DNA of 8,983 bases, from positions 136,190 through 145,172 of the forward strand of contig JAQGDQ010000547.1 of NCBI GenBank assembly GCA_030141605.1. Direction: 5' to 3'. Shown here in pieces: positions 435 to 7,610 of the stretch. Made by a program: the position numbers and the translations under genes. The stretch is from Tubiluchus corallicola (lineage: Eukaryota > Animalia > Priapulida). The notes under the pieces were generated by a model. That model was not told the origin of the DNA, searched no databases, and worked only from the letters and a program-made list of their open reading frames with translations. How positions within the stretch are numbered: position 1 is the first letter of the stretch; every line of letters begins with the position of its first letter.

Positions 435-579
435 CAAGAGACTCATCGGGAAGCAGCGATAATGACACTGCCGATGCTCGAAGCAGTCACAGAGGTAGAG
501 GGGGTGGAGGACGGGGGCGTGGTCGAGGACGGGGCAGAAAAAATACTCGAGGGCGGGGCAGGTCTCGTGGAACTGGACG
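435..579 (+). CDS. Internal coding exon of an unidentified host gene; Ser-rich then RGG/GAR (Gly-Arg) repeat segment
   Basis: Acceptor tttatttggcag| ends at 434 and donor cg|gtatgt starts at 580. GC-rich island in AT-rich DNA. Phase 1 start reads RDSSGSSDNDTADARSSHRGRGGGGRGRGRGRGRKNTRGRGRSRGTG plus CG, with no stops. The 2-nt CG overhang joins G5489 of the next exon to make CGG (Arg) in frame. Confidence 0.8.
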
Positions 580-905
580 GTATGTTTTCCTTAGTATTTA
601 AAGTAAAAATCTTTTTTTTAACCACCTTTGGCTTATATATATTTAGCTTGTAAACTGTGATTTGCATAATACAGGGTGTGTCAAAAGTAATTATACACTT
701 TGATTTTGAATTTGCTAGCTCTTGATTAATGAAAAGGGGCCTTTGAAAATTCTTTTCATTTAGTTTTTGTCTGGAACCACGTTGCTGTGACGATGACCGT
801 AATTTTAGAAAGTAGAATTGAAGCCCAGAGACAGCCTGGCAATAAGGCCTTTCGATCACCATCTGAAATTCAGCGCATTGTATGAACCATACCATTCCCT
901 CACTA

Positions 906-1281
906 CAGTCCACCCTCGTTAAACCGGACTAATTGGGGGGTGTGGGTGTGGTCCGGTTTAGCCGATTGTCCGATTTATCCGATATGCCTATATATGGTCT
1001 ATATTATACAGGAATAATCACCTTATTAAGACCTATATACTGTGCACTATATACCTTACTGTATATTACTTTAAAATGGTTAACCTGTGAGGATAAAGAA
1101 CTTATTGTACAGTTTAAATAAAAAATGGCCTCGGCCCGTCAATGGCTTGTGGTGAGTTGGTAGGCCGTGTTGTGTTTAGTGCTCCGGCTCGGTCGGAAAT
1201 CGGTCAGTTTCCTTTACCACGATGACGTCCGTCTTATCCGATATCCGGGCTAACGGGATCCGGTTTAACGAGGGTCGACTG
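906..1281. mobile_element. Tc1/mariner superfamily (Tigger/pogo-like) MITE, 376 bp
   Basis: TIRs CAGTCCACCCTCGTTAAACCGGA (906-928) and TCCGGTTTAACGAGGGTCGACTG (1259-1281) match at 22/23. TA target duplication at 904-905 and 1282-1283. Subterminal tccg…(t/a)(a/t)ccga-type repeats at both ends. Confidence 0.9.
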
Positions 1282-1427
1282 TATTAACAATGTAGTTTTT
1301 CAACAAGGTGCAGCGCTTCTTCATCACTCAATAGCCATGAGGGACTTTTTAATTGTAAAATGCTCGACTTACCTTTAGATTGATCTCTGACGTTGTTAAG
1401 TCCCTAAAAAAGGTAATGAAAATAAAC

Positions 1428-1471
1428 AGCCTGCTAGTGCAGTGGTTCAAAGCCCGCTAGTGCAGTGGTTC
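1428..1471. repeat. Tandem duplication, 21-bp unit with 23-bp period
   Basis: agcctgctagtgcagtggttc (1428-1448) and agcccgctagtgcagtggttc (1451-1471), 20/21 identical. Confidence 0.85.
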
Positions 1472-1510
1472 TTTCCAGATTTTCACCTTCTTTTTCTTCC
1501 CAGCTTTTCC

Positions 1511-1945
1511 CTATGCGGGGTCGCCGTTGTGAATGAGTTTTCTCCACACATTCCTGTTGTTGACCATCTCTTCATTTATGTTCTTCTCTCTAAGGTCTCC
1601 TTTAATACATTCAATCCCTCTCCGCTTGGGTCGTCCTCTTCCTCTATTTCCCAGCACTTCCATTTCCATGACCTCCCTTCCCACATGATCTTCACCAACT
1701 CTTCTTTTCAGGTGTCCATACCATCGCAATCTTGCAAGGCTTCCACTACTTTTATTGTTCCTCTGATATTATTATTTCTAATTTTAACTCTTCTTGTTAT
1801 TCCCACCATCCATCTCAACATCCTCATCTCCACCACATCCATTTTCTTCTCTTCGGTCTTCTTTAGAGAAGCTGCTTCCAGCCCATAGATTAGAGCGGGT
1901 CTGACCACTTCTTTGTGGACTTTACCTTTAAGTCTCACCGACTCA
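1511..1945 (-). pseudogene. Degenerate C-terminal fragment of an RTE LINE ORF (region downstream of the reverse transcriptase domain)
   Basis: ORFs 1708..1950 and 1511..1729 join through a frameshift near 1730. They carry RTE hallmark motifs (RPALIYG, EMRMLRW, LRWYGH, RGRGRPKRR, DP-stop). No endonuclease or RT core is present. Confidence 0.88.
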
Positions 1946-1985
1946 TTCATAGAAGGTTTTGGCGCAGTTTTTACACACGGATGCC

Positions 1986-3295
1986 CAGGGCACTTTATTT
2001 ATGACTTTAGTCATAAATTGCATAAATAGCTTATTTAATACTAATTTCAGATTTTATTTATGACTATTTATGACGTGTCAAATTTTGACCAAAAATGCCA
2101 TCCTGAGCTAAAAGAAATACATATTTTTAATCAGAATCTTGTATTTTGCCTTTCTTCTTTCTTCATTACATTAAAATGTAATAAAAATGTCTACTTTCAT
2201 CATTCCAAGGCCTGAAGTTTCTCGTATTGTTTTGCATGCAGGCATCCCTCCAGACTGAAATCCGTGATCGTGTTTATAATAATTATAGTATCGGTTTTAA
2301 TTTGTTTAGGATGACCTATAAAATTACTGCTCATAAAAATCAATCTATTAATTAATTCGTACAGTCACAATTCGTAGCCACAATTAGTACAAGTAAATAA
2401 TGTATTTTTTTAAATATCGATTTTAAATTTAATGTTGGAAAATACTATTGGCTATTACATCTTTCTAGGGAACCGTCACGTATGTTTTCTAATTAAAATT
2501 GCATTAAGCAAAATAACTAAACAAGAAAAACAGTTAAATTTTAATGACAATGAAGCAGCAAATTCTCCCAAAGATAAAATATGCTCAAATTCTAGCAGAC
2601 GGCATTATTCTTATTTCTTGAGGATGAGGCAGTAAGGCACGGGAAACGCTTGCGGCAAACTCGAGCTAAAACCTACACCCAAGCCATTGACTTACGCCGC
2701 TTAGGGGTGAGCATCGAAGTTCGGTTCGATTCGAATTCGAAAGTCACAAATTCGGTTCGATTCGAATTCGCTTTCTGGTAGAGAATGCTCACCCCTAACG
2801 CCGTTAGGATGAGAAAGGCACTGAAATGAACGTGCAAAGAAAAGAATTAGAAGTGTAGATTTCTGTTATTGTGCAGAGCGTAGGTTTGAGGCGGTAGAAC
2901 TTTAGGACATTAAAATAGGTAAGCTGTCTTTAATTCAAATTTTCGATGGAACGACAACGATTCTGTCGGTGCCTATTTATTTTTTCGCGGTAACGCGCTC
3001 ATTTACTTTTTATTATTTAGGTTGCTTCTAGACGAGTTAATGACAGATAAACGCATCAGTTAGACAGTCTCAGTTACTGTGTTAGTCCACCAAACAGTCA
3101 CGCGCAAGCTTCTTATGGACTGCCTGTGTGTGTGGGAGAGAGAGAGAGACGGTGGAAACAGTTTTCTGTACTGAATTTTTTGTTCCATTCTTCGGGAAGT
3201 GATTATTTTTCTTTCGTTATTTATGACAAATTTGAAATCTTATTTATGACTATTTATGACTATTTTGCAAGAAAAGTCATAAATAAAGTGCCCTG
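1986..3295. mobile_element. Non-autonomous DNA transposon with an 8-bp TSD (hAT-like), 1310 bp including a nested MITE
   Basis: Perfect 23-bp TIRs CAGGGCACTTTATTTATGACTTT (1986-2008) and AAAGTCATAAATAAAGTGCCCTG (3273-3295). Perfect 8-bp TSD CGGATGCC at 1978-1985 and 3296-3303. Clustered subterminal (T)TTATGAC repeats near both ends. No transposase ORF. Confidence 0.93.
2702..2797. mobile_element. 96-bp hAT-like MITE nested in the 1986-3295 element
   Basis: 13-bp perfect TIRs TAGGGGTGAGCAT / ATGCTCACCCCTA. 8-bp TSD ACGCCGCT (2694-2701) and ACGCCGTT (2798-2805). Internal 20-bp direct repeat TTCGGTTCGATTCGAATTCG at 2720-2739 and 2751-2770. Confidence 0.88.
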
Positions 3296-3310
3296 CGGAT
3301 GCCCTTCCTG

Positions 3311-3393
3311 ACCCTAACCCTCCCTTTTTATCCGGGCTTGGGACCGGCACTGAGTTGGGCTGGCTTGCCCCCCCCCCCCCCCGTGGCTAGGTT
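3311..3393 (-). ncRNA. Type-P1 twister self-cleaving ribozyme, 3' cleavage-product form, at the RTE 5' end
   Basis: Minus strand reads AA-CCU-AGCC-AC-G15-C-AAGCCA-GCCCAACUCAGU-GCCGG-UCCCAAGC-CCGG-AUAAAA-AGG-GAGGG-UUAGGGU. P2 is CCU/AGG and P4 is CCGG/CCGG with loop UCCCAAGC. The loop CCC can pair with GGG of GAGGG (pseudoknot T1). The core closely matches my recollection of the rice Osa-1-4 twister (UGCCGGUCCCAAGCCCGGAUAAAAGUGGAGGG). Confidence 0.85.
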
Positions 3394-3883
3394 CTTTTCA
3401 GATTTTCATCTAATTTGACTAAAAGATTTGCCAAGCGTTTAGTTCATCTGCAAAACATTTTGCTTTATTTCTTAAAAAAATAAAGAAAATGCAAAGCGTG
3501 CAAGTGATTTCTGAGACACCTGTAATATATTTAAATATACCTGCAATTTTGTATATTTTCATTTTTTATCTCTACATAACTGATTTGTAGGTTGACAGAC
3601 ATATAAGTGACAAGAGCCATTGAAAACTGTAGAAAAGCATTTCGTGTAAAATTTGCTGTTGAAAATGTATTTAAATGATCATGAATGTGGTCTGTGACAT
3701 TAAACTGTAAGTAAGTATTGTTTCGGTTCCACATAAGATACACAAACTGATATCTGAACAACATTTGTTATATTATATTGAATGTCACGTTAAAATATGG
3801 ATGACCAAATGTGAGAACTCAATTGAGAACATTGAATTCTTCAGCTACCATGTGTTTTTAACTCTGTTATATCAGGAAAATAG

Positions 3884-4741: not shown

Positions 4742-5410
4742 TATGTGCGCTTGCATAGCAAAATCGTCCATAAGTCGGCAATTAACCTTTTCTAGTTGTT
4801 CACATACCGTGAATCTCCATTTCGTGCGGATCATTTTGATACCAAGCTCATCGTTCTGTGTTATTTCTAAGCTGAGATAATCCACGTTGAAGTTGAGTGC
4901 ATGCTACGTACTAAAAAACATAATCTTGAGAAAATCGCTGTTAAAGTTGACCATCGTTTTTTGTCGCGTTTCTATAAAACACTTGACAACTGTACGAAAG
5001 TGTGGTTGCTATGGACTTTACAAAAGCACGTTGAAGTTAAGTTTAAATCCAGTAGATGGCTCTTCCTGACGAAGATGTGAGCTTGTCAACAGAAAAAACC
5101 AGAAACAAATGACTCCTTCCGCAAATTATTATCGGAGTTTGAAAATGCAAGTTTTTTACAATTGCAGTACTAATTTCTAGGCAGAGAAATGGGCACGGGG
5201 CTATAAAATTAAATTTTTGTTATTCTTGGGACATTTTCTTGATAATTTGATGCTAGAATACAAAAGTCCAATATATTTAGCATTTGTTTTTATAAAAAAA
5301 AACAAAAAAATGACATTTGGCTACATTTTTGGTGCATTCTGCCTTGAAGCATCATAACATAGTTTTAAGTATGCCGACTTATGGACGAGTTTGCTTTGCA
5401 AACACACATA
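4742..5410. mobile_element. MITE with ~39-bp TIRs, superfamily uncertain
   Basis: TATGTGCGCTTGCATAGCAAAATCGTCCATAAGTCGGCA (4742-4780) matches the reverse complement of 5372-5410 at 35/39. If the termini are GTG…CAC (4745-5407), the flanks ATAT/ATAG could be a 4-bp TSD. Interior is non-coding. Confidence 0.82.
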
Positions 5411-5488: not shown

Positions 5489-5634
5489 GGGAAAGTCGAA
5501 GAGACGGTTGACTGAAGATGAAGAAGAATCAGATGTAGAAGAGAAGAGGAGAAAGGCAAAGCCTGATAGCTCTGATAAAGAAGATGATGATGAGAATCGT
5601 GTAATGGATGCACGTGATCATTCTCCTGAAAGAG
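5489..5634 (+). CDS. Internal coding exon of the same gene; basic clusters with acidic Asp/Glu/Ser tracts (nuclear-protein-like disordered tail)
   Basis: Acceptor ttccctaacag| ends at 5488 and donor agag|gtaggg starts at 5635. Reads G + GKSKRRLTEDEEESDVEEKRRKAKPDSSDKEDDDENRVMDARDHSPER + G (146 nt = 1+144+1). Phase is compatible with exon 435-579. Confidence 0.8.
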
Positions 5635-6443: not shown

Positions 6444-7610
6444 ATCAACAACAGCACACGAAAACAACAAAATGAGGCAAACAACTGCAAATCATACAAT
6501 CAACAACAGCACACCAAAACAACAAAAAGAGACAAACAATTGCATATCATACAATCAACAACAGTACACGCAAACAACAAAAAGAGACAAACAACTGAAA
6601 ATCATACAATCAAAACAGCACACACAAACAACAAAAAGAGACAAACAACTGCAAATCATACAATCAACAACAGCACATGCAAACAACAAAAAAAGACAAA
6701 CAACCGCAAATCATACAATCAAAACAGCACACACAAACAACAAAAAGAGACAAACAACTGCAAATCATACAGTCAAAACAGCACACACAAACAACAAAAA
6801 GAGACAAACAACTGCAAATCATACAATCAACAACAGCACACGCAAACGGCAAAAAGAGACAAGCAACTGCAAATCATACAGTCTACAACGACACACACAA
6901 ACAACAAAAAGAGACAAACAACTGCAAATCATACAATCAAAACAGCACACACAAACAACAAAATGAGGCAAACAACTGCAAATCATACAATCAACAACAG
7001 CACACGCAAACAACAAAAAGAGACAAACAACTGCAAATCATACAGTCTACAACGACACACACAAACAACAAAAAGAGACAAACAACTGCAAATCATACAA
7101 TCAACAACAGCACACGCAAACAACAAAAAGAGACAAACAACTGCAAATCATACAATCAACAACAGCACACGCAAACAACAAAAAGAGACAAACAACTGCA
7201 AATCATACAATCAAAACAGCACACGCAAACAACAAAAAGAGACAAACAACTGCAAATCATACAATCAAAACAGCACACACAAACAACAAAAAGAGACAAA
7301 CAACTGCAAATCATACAATCAAAACAGCACACACAAACAACAAAAAGAGACAAACAACTGCAAATCATACAATCAAAACAGCACACGCAAACAACAAAAA
7401 GAGACAAACAACTGCAAATCATACAATCAAAACAGCACACACAAACAACAAAAAGAGACAAACAACTGCAAATCATACAATCAACAACAGCACACACAAA
7501 CAACAAAAAGAGACAAACAACTGCAAATCATACAATCAACAACAGCACACACAAACAACAAAAAGAGACAAACAACTGCAAATCATACAATCAAAACAGC
7601 ACACACAAAC
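6444..7610. repeat. Minisatellite, 54/55-bp unit, ~21 copies
   Basis: Unit aaacaacaaaaagagacaaacaactgcaaatcatacaatcaa(c)aacagcacac(a/g)c. The core atcatac occurs 21 times between 6492 and 7588. Strongly A/C-biased on the + strand. Confidence 0.97.

What the first reader, a model, noticed from the sequence alone, without database searches (positions are those of the whole stretch)
3311..3393. Twister ribozyme forming the exact 5' end of a miniature RTE retroelement
Seen: the minus strand has a complete twister core (P2 CCU/AGG, P4 CCGG/CCGG, loop UCCCAAGC, GAGGG, and a P3 arm with a G15 run). It begins with AA at 3393, where the element meets the target-site duplication. Established: twister cleaves at N^A just 5' of this AA, and twisters cap the 5' end of RTE elements such as Schistosoma Perere-3. 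Inference: this copy was reverse-transcribed from a self-cleaved RNA, so it kept the 3' product and lost the P1 5' strand. The flank (…cugaaaag) offers only about 2 bp against the P1 3' strand (UUAGGGU), so this copy is probably weak or inactive in cis. The last 4 nt (ggtt on +) are shared with the target site, so the junction is a microhomology and is ambiguous by 4 nt.
Basis: partly seen in the sequence, partly recalled or inferred. Interest (0 to 1): 0.85.

Follow-up and report, generated by a model that had tools for sequence, protein, structure and literature searches.

The report
Twister-headed miniature RTE jumping gene
These 83 bases have the sequence of a twister self-cutting RNA and sit at the front of one aged copy of a short, abundant jumping element, and sister copies begin at the letter where this RNA is predicted to cut, so it is likely a further example of a trick already published for a blood-fluke retrotransposon rather than a new principle.

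Summary
The minus strand at 3393-3311 carries every twister core element (Rfam twister-P1, 29.8 bits, E 0.0033, below the curated cut-off). It heads a 589-nt internally deleted RTE-like element with a 15-22-nt target-site duplication, later interrupted by a 1310-nt DNA transposon. In public runs the family is abundant. The 9 best-supported loose-end rows at its head (66 contigs, two studies) all diverge right after the AA, so the family settles the 4-nt ambiguity of this copy. First, P2 has 4 pairs in the family; this copy lost one, and also has a P3 mismatch. Second, a 2-bp P1 is no reason to call it inactive: published tests show P1 is dispensable and P2 flaws are tolerated. A competing helix is predicted in this copy, so its activity is open. 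Cleavage was not tested. The arrangement is published (Perere-3; noted for RTEs generally), bipartite RTE derivatives are common, and this scan noted the same thing on other DNA five times. Verdict: new member of a known kind, low interest.

The parts
3311..3393 (-). Twister ribozyme, type-P1 layout, without a fixed P1 5' strand; predicted cut just 5' of 3393
   Evidence: Rfam RF03160, E 0.0033; pair checks; cut position from PMC8501958 Results
3388..3391 (-). P2 5' strand; partner 3326-3323; top pair is A.A here and A-U in the family majority
   Evidence: table 3, place 3326: over 99% of depth differs in all 4 runs
3348..3385 (-). P3 arm with a G run of 15; other copies show a U before a run of 8-12 G, so P3 has a G.A mismatch here
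   Evidence: (loose ends)
3390..3408 (.). Target-site duplication, copy at the element's 5' side; 3390-3393 shared with the element (microhomology)
   Evidence: empty-site paralogues
1467..1485 (.). Target-site duplication, copy at the element's 3' side (extends to 1488 with a second mismatch)
3304..3393 (-). Element head (ribozyme plus start of 5' UTR), 90 nt
   Evidence: 50 of 55 letters like the head of autonomous relative L027 over 3296-3350
1941..1985 (-). Rest of the 5' UTR part, up to the internal-deletion junction near 1940
   Evidence: bridging contigs table 8
1487..1940 (-). 3' part: last ~140 codons of an APE+RT ORF (frameshifted near 1740), short 3' UTR and degenerate GAA-like tail
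1986..3295 (.). Later insertion of a hAT-like non-autonomous DNA transposon (inverted ends, 8-bp duplication at 1978-1985 / 3296-3303); the label hAT is recalled from these features
   Evidence: family contigs skip 1318 nt here (table 5)

Best explanation
This is the twister-ribozyme head of one aged copy of an abundant, internally deleted RTE-like retroelement, and the ribozyme likely cuts the element's RNA out of longer host transcripts just before the AA, which would explain why sister copies start at that letter. Shown here: the twister core, the two-part anatomy (135 nt of 5' end joined to 454 nt of 3' end), the target-site duplication, the family's 5' ends at the AA, and a later DNA-transposon insertion. 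Inferred from Perere-3: a read-through host transcript folds the ribozyme, with flank as a variable and largely dispensable P1; cleavage leaves a 5'-AA RNA; the APE+RT protein of an autonomous partner copies it in trans by target-primed reverse transcription; the cDNA end joins the target, here over a 4-nt microhomology. This copy keeps all catalytic positions but has a mismatch in P2, one in P3 and a predicted competing helix. I put its cleavage in vitro at about even odds. It lies antisense in a probable host intron, so it would not cut that pre-mRNA.
For: Core and pseudoknot pairs intact. In one search the table shows 20 loose-end rows (93 more not shown). The 9 rows at the head, from X1, X2 (one sample) and X3 (another study), 66 contigs in all, either read the last 12 letters of the head and then diverge (7 rows) or diverge right at 3393 (2 rows). 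Depth over the head is hundreds- to thousands-fold above the flank in 4 of 4 runs (not a copy number). The family majority restores the fourth P2 pair, giving a P2 type not among the 53 distinct relatives examined; 37 of the 39 with a recognisable AA anchor have 4 of 4 P2 pairs, in six sequence types. 20 of 64 twister-motif loci have an APE+RT ORF downstream on the same strand, and 1 of 64 upstream. L027 has the most similar head (61.3 bits) in front of endonuclease and RT frames. The window's peptide matches residues 821-961 of the 962-aa APE+RT protein P0004. Three listed contigs with other letters bridge the deletion junction (table 8, records 20, 30, 31).
Against: No cleavage and no RNA data. 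The Rfam score is below the curated cut-off. The loose-end table is not a census: 93 rows are hidden, contigs break at the variable G run, and X1 and X2 count the same copies. The P2 anchor was chosen as the best-pairing one, which favours 4 of 4, and 14 of 53 contexts had no anchor. 44 of 64 motif loci show no ORF downstream (many are short, and some carry a full P1). Energy folding gives the native P2 a probability of 0 for this copy and also with the majority letters, and the minimum-energy fold of L027 is not native either; pseudoknots are not modelled, so folding does not test activity. RTE clade was not tested by a tree. The share of bipartite versus full-length copies is unknown: in X3 the 3' part is about 2- to 16-fold deeper than the head.
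Confidence: 0.85

Rival explanations
1. The 5' end is set by a transcription start (an internal promoter) at the AA, and the twister fold is an inherited relic or serves only as a translation or stability element.
For: A fixed start would give the same pile-up. No cleavage was tested here. PMC5786205 (section 23) notes that 5' regions of LINEs drive transcription.
Against: The end coincides to the letter with the known twister cut position (PMC8501958). Family copies keep all four P2 pairs in a changed sequence. Perere-3 heads cleave in vitro and in yeast reporters.
Confidence: 0.07
2. The short form is not a transposing family: this is one full-length or truncated RTE copy that lost its middle after insertion.
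For: One X3 contig leaves the window at 1936 and, read by eye, continues into upstream ORF codons like those of P0004, so longer elements exist. Other internal deletions also occur (table 5).
Against: Contigs from two studies that differ from this copy by 8-12 letters bridge the same junction (table 8). In X1 the head is about as deep as the 3' part, unlike 5'-truncated LINE families. Bipartite RTE families are described as common (PMC7245038, passages).
Confidence: 0.06
3. For this copy only: reverse transcription stopped up to 4 nt short and the AACC comes from the target, so this junction says nothing about cleavage.
For: The four letters are present in the other copy of the duplication.
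Against: It cannot be excluded, but it does not touch the family-level result, and the outcome in sequence is the same.
Confidence: 0.3

Closest known systems
T-variant twister ribozymes at the 5' end of Perere-3 (RTE clade), Schistosoma mansoni; PMC8501958 (abstract, introduction, most of Results, first part of Discussion read; supplement searched for four short motifs, none found)
   Same: Twister core starting at AA next to the target-site duplication; P1 5' strand supplied by the flank; APE+RT element; short-repeat 3' end.
   Different: Here the carrier is a 589-nt internally deleted derivative with no intact ORF; P2 and P3 sequences differ from the paper's Table 1; the tail is GAA-like rather than GTAA; activity is untested.
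Truncated twisters at 5' ends of RTE-superfamily elements; PMC7761336 (passages; cited there as in preparation)
   Same: States that truncated but catalytically competent twisters are conserved at RTE 5' ends.
   Different: No data shown there; non-autonomous derivatives are not mentioned in the passages seen.
Bipartite non-autonomous RTE LINEs (RTESINE1/2, WALLSI3, MAR4_MD, Bov-A); PMC5786205 (passages, section 23), PMC7245038 (passages)
   Same: 5' end plus 3' end of an RTE joined by internal deletion, no small-RNA head; a 5' ribozyme is proposed there as the reason such elements keep the true 5' end.
   Different: Those passages cite HDV-like ribozymes, not twister; this element keeps about 140 codons of ORF.
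R2 SIDEs (short internally deleted elements); seen only in passages of the review PMC6765202
   Same: Ribozyme-headed internally deleted parasites of a LINE.
   Different: HDV-like ribozyme, R2 clade, site-specific insertion in rDNA.

Membership tests
twister ribozyme, type P1 (RF03160) | Score at or above the Rfam gathering cut-off (67.2 bits) | tested here: not met
   29.8 bits, E 0.0033; the 6 hits in 5 relative loci score 45-61 bits, also below
twister ribozyme, type P1 (RF03160) | Conserved L1 (AA and GAGGG), L2 GC, L4 and P4 | tested here: met
   compared with Table 1 of PMC8501958
twister ribozyme, type P1 (RF03160) | Two pseudoknots complementary | tested here: met
   T1 3 of 3, T2 2 of 2; complementarity only, formation not shown
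twister ribozyme, type P1 (RF03160) | P2 stem of 4 pairs, with covariation | tested here: inconclusive
   3 of 4 in this copy; 4 of 4 in the family majority; compensatory types among relatives from other genomes; no compensatory change seen among copies of this family
twister ribozyme, type P1 (RF03160) | Full P1 stem | tested here: not met
   2 pairs, chance level; hence filed as the T-variant form, in which P1 is variable
twister ribozyme (any form) | Site-specific self-cleavage | not testable with these tools
   needs a cleavage assay
bipartite non-autonomous RTE LINE | 5' and 3' parts of an APE+RT LINE joined by internal deletion | tested here: met
bipartite non-autonomous RTE LINE | Target-site duplication and short-repeat 3' tail | tested here: met
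   empty-site paralogues
bipartite non-autonomous RTE LINE | Several copies share the junction | tested here: met
   3 of the 32 listed pieces bridge it with 31+ letters each side (table 8); share of the family unknown
bipartite non-autonomous RTE LINE | No small-RNA (Pol III) head | tested here: met
   the only Rfam match at the head is twister-P1
bipartite non-autonomous RTE LINE | Parent falls in the RTE clade by RT phylogeny | not tested
   single APE+RT ORFs of about 960-1010 aa among the hits fit RTE; the clade label itself is recalled
Perere-3 itself | Intact single ORF downstream of the ribozyme | tested here: not met
   ORF deleted up to its last ~140 codons; works like Perere-3, is not a member

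The most novel reading that the evidence does not exclude
The family's insertion machinery prefers targets that put a U directly before the element's AA, so that each new copy rebuilds the canonical U^AA cut site from host DNA: endonuclease or junction choice tuned to the ribozyme. The base before the AA is U in 8 of the 9 head loose-end consensus rows and in 29 of 38 unrelated twister loci, but in only 6 of the 12 RTE-linked ones; this copy has G. An AT-rich genome and ties in the consensus could produce the same picture.
Probability: 0.12. Interest if true: 0.5.

Novelty: new member of a known kind. Interest (0 to 1): 0.2.

Why it matters
It adds one more abundant family in which a twister ribozyme appears to define the 5' end of an RTE-like element, here a non-autonomous miniature. 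A family with many copies, each with a different flank, would be a ready natural library for asking whether flank (P1, the base before the AA) or internal decay decides which copies keep spreading, a point that the Perere-3 model proposes and the large cleavage screen puts in doubt. The principle is already published.

Tried and rejected
No assembled genome is held for this window, so copies were examined only through contigs of public runs. No RNA holder was listed. Run X6 (RNA is a guess) gave one contig, from a different twister-headed family. Pfam found nothing significant in the two window peptides. Twister patterns found 0 loci in genome contigs and viral contigs; P0004 found no relative in genome contigs. 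Minimum-energy folding gave z-scores of -0.44, 0.37 and -0.82 and no native fold, also for L027, so it is not a test of activity. One search used pair positions off by one for P3 and P4; one search corrects it. Papers: searches. One search (twister, RTE, truncated, retrotransposons, self-cleaving; 2021 on) found 0 papers. One search listed 4 papers, and in the listing and the two I read (PMC8501958, PMC6765202) I saw no twister-headed non-autonomous RTE; subscription journals and Repbase are not covered. The supplement of PMC11662667 could not be read; it may hold a tested relative of this ribozyme. PMC6007223 (abstract, passages) describes T bias at the first base of RTE duplications and about 10 nt upstream, not at the base before the element's 5' end, so it does not explain the U before AA. 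Look-ups by sequence and by place in earlier findings were empty. The host was not identified; the best named protein hits are shrimp records at 78%, which does not name the host because RTEs move horizontally (PMC6007223 abstract).

Full report
Observation. The minus strand from 3393 carries AA, the P2 5' strand, GC, a long P3 arm with 15 G, P4 with its loop, the P2 3' strand and GAGGG. Rfam finds twister-P1 at 3371-3314 with 29.8 bits and E 0.0033, below the curated 67.2; the alignment is exact over the 3' half and misplaced over the long P3. Pair checks give P4 3 of 3, T1 3 of 3, T2 2 of 2, P2 3 of 4, P3 6 of 7 plus a 4-pair inner hairpin, and P1 2 contiguous pairs. Two P1 pairs are chance level: 25.5% of window positions give as many.

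The element. A 19-nt direct repeat with one mismatch (1467-1485 / 3390-3408; 22 nt with two) brackets the element. Inside, 1986-3295 has inverted ends and an 8-bp duplication; contigs in all four runs skip exactly 1318 nt there, so it is a later insertion. What remains is 589 nt: 135 nt of head and 5' UTR, then 454 nt holding the last ~140 codons of an ORF and a degenerate GAA-like tail. The peptide finds 69 relatives (E up to 0.001, of 91 candidates); several are 960-1010-aa single ORFs with endonuclease and RT domains, and the window aligns to residues 821-961 of P0004 with a frameshift near 1740. The RTE label rests on this architecture and on recall; no tree was built.

The family. No assembly was available. 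Four public runs (two samples, two studies) hold the stretch. Summed contig depth over the head is 668,925 against 114 at the far flank in X1, 20,524 against 13 in X2, 47,640 against 3-11 in X3 and 5,106 against 6.5 in X4; the tool warns that this is no copy number, but the family is clearly abundant. This copy differs from the X1 majority at 10 listed places in 1487-1985 and at 3326 (15 rows hidden), so it is aged. Three of the 32 listed pieces bridge the deletion junction while differing from this copy, and one X3 contig leaves at 1936 into what reads by eye as upstream ORF, so short and long forms both exist.

The key test. Laying contigs on 3305-3425 shows 20 loose-end rows, with 93 hidden. 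Nine rows concern the head in X1, X2 and X3. Seven of them (48 contigs) leave the window after 8-12 letters of the homopolymer run, read the same 12 letters ending at the AA, and then lose agreement; two (18 contigs) leave exactly at 3393. No listed row from these runs puts a family 5' end elsewhere. Five rows (before 3391-3393) and three (behind 3422-3424) belong to the flank, which is itself a repeat: 32, 38 and 18 contigs run from 3391 into sequence like the left flank at 1448-1466. These are empty sites and confirm the duplication. Of the other three rows, two are the X6 contig of another family and one is a 2-contig X3 row on the downstream side (before 3318). Limits: X1 and X2 are one sample, and this is not a census.

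What is special to this copy. Over 99% of depth at 3326 has the other letter in 4 of 4 runs, which completes P2 as 4 pairs; the loose ends show a U before the G run, which completes P3. With its own letters this copy is predicted to pair 3391-3385 with 3319-3313 (probability 0.53-0.93 in three windows); with the two majority letters that falls to 0.04-0.19 and P3 forms. Pseudoknots are not modelled, native P2 is not predicted in either case, and other family differences in the head may be hidden, so this is a hint only.

Relatives. A core pattern gave 64 metagenome loci. An APE+RT ORF follows on the same strand in 20 of 64 and precedes in 1 of 64. Of 53 distinct contexts, 39 have an AA anchor and 37 of those have 4 of 4 P2 pairs in six types; the family's type is a further one (anchor chosen by best pairing). 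Among the 12 RTE-linked contexts with a good anchor, P1 has 0 pairs in 5, 1 in 5, 2 in 1 and 4 in 1. L027 has the most similar head in front of endonuclease and RT frames.

Mechanism. Shown: anatomy, duplication, family 5' ends at the AA. Inferred from PMC8501958: cleavage leaves a 5'-AA RNA, the flank forms a variable P1, and the element is copied by target-primed reverse transcription; here the protein must come in trans. An upstream hairpin is predicted in this flank. I leave this copy's activity at about even odds. Two exon-like stretches (435-579 and 5489-5634) have AG/GT ends and compatible phase on the plus strand, so the element probably lies antisense in an intron.

Known or new. Twister at RTE 5' ends is shown for Perere-3 and stated for the superfamily (PMC7761336). 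Bipartite RTE derivatives are common and their link to 5' ribozymes has been proposed; R2 SIDEs are the same idea with another ribozyme. My six searches found no paper on a twister-headed non-autonomous RTE, but the library is partial. Five earlier notes of this scan describe the same arrangement on other DNA (unchecked, not counted as support). Verdict: new member of a known kind, interest 0.2.

Noticed in passing
window 4505-3957, minus strand: A 5S rRNA-derived head (4505-4392, 89.6 bits) followed by about 430 nt of GC-rich body, between AT microsatellites: probably a 5S-headed SINE.
   Followed up: no
window 2702-2797: A 96-nt element with 13-nt inverted ends and an 8-bp duplication (1 mismatch) nested in the DNA-transposon insert; very deep in the runs, with many loose ends at 2796-2798.
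   Followed up: partly
window 1986-3295: hAT-like non-autonomous transposon inserted 7 nt downstream of the finding, inside the element's 5' UTR; multi-copy by depth.
   Followed up: partly
window 1428-1485 and 3390-3500: The target site is itself a dispersed repeat with many empty-site paralogues; a 23-nt tandem duplication lies at 1428-1471.
   Followed up: partly
window 6444-7610: Tandem array, 55-nt unit, 21.4 copies, 94% matches, strongly strand-skewed.
   Followed up: no
window 904-1283 and 4742-5410: Two pairs of inverted repeats (25 nt, 330 nt apart; 39 nt, 591 nt apart) that look like MITE ends.
   Followed up: no
window 435-579 and 5489-5634: Probable host exons on the plus strand, RG-rich and acidic, with compatible phase; gene not identified.
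   Followed up: partly
run X6 contig laid at 3316-3350; L009:2457-2560: A second twister-headed family: the X6 contig shares the core but its flanks resemble, by eye, the downstream sequence of L009.
   Followed up: no
L027:744-800: The 3' end of one element is followed about 20 nt later by the twister head of the next: tandem copies or an assembly loop.
   Followed up: no
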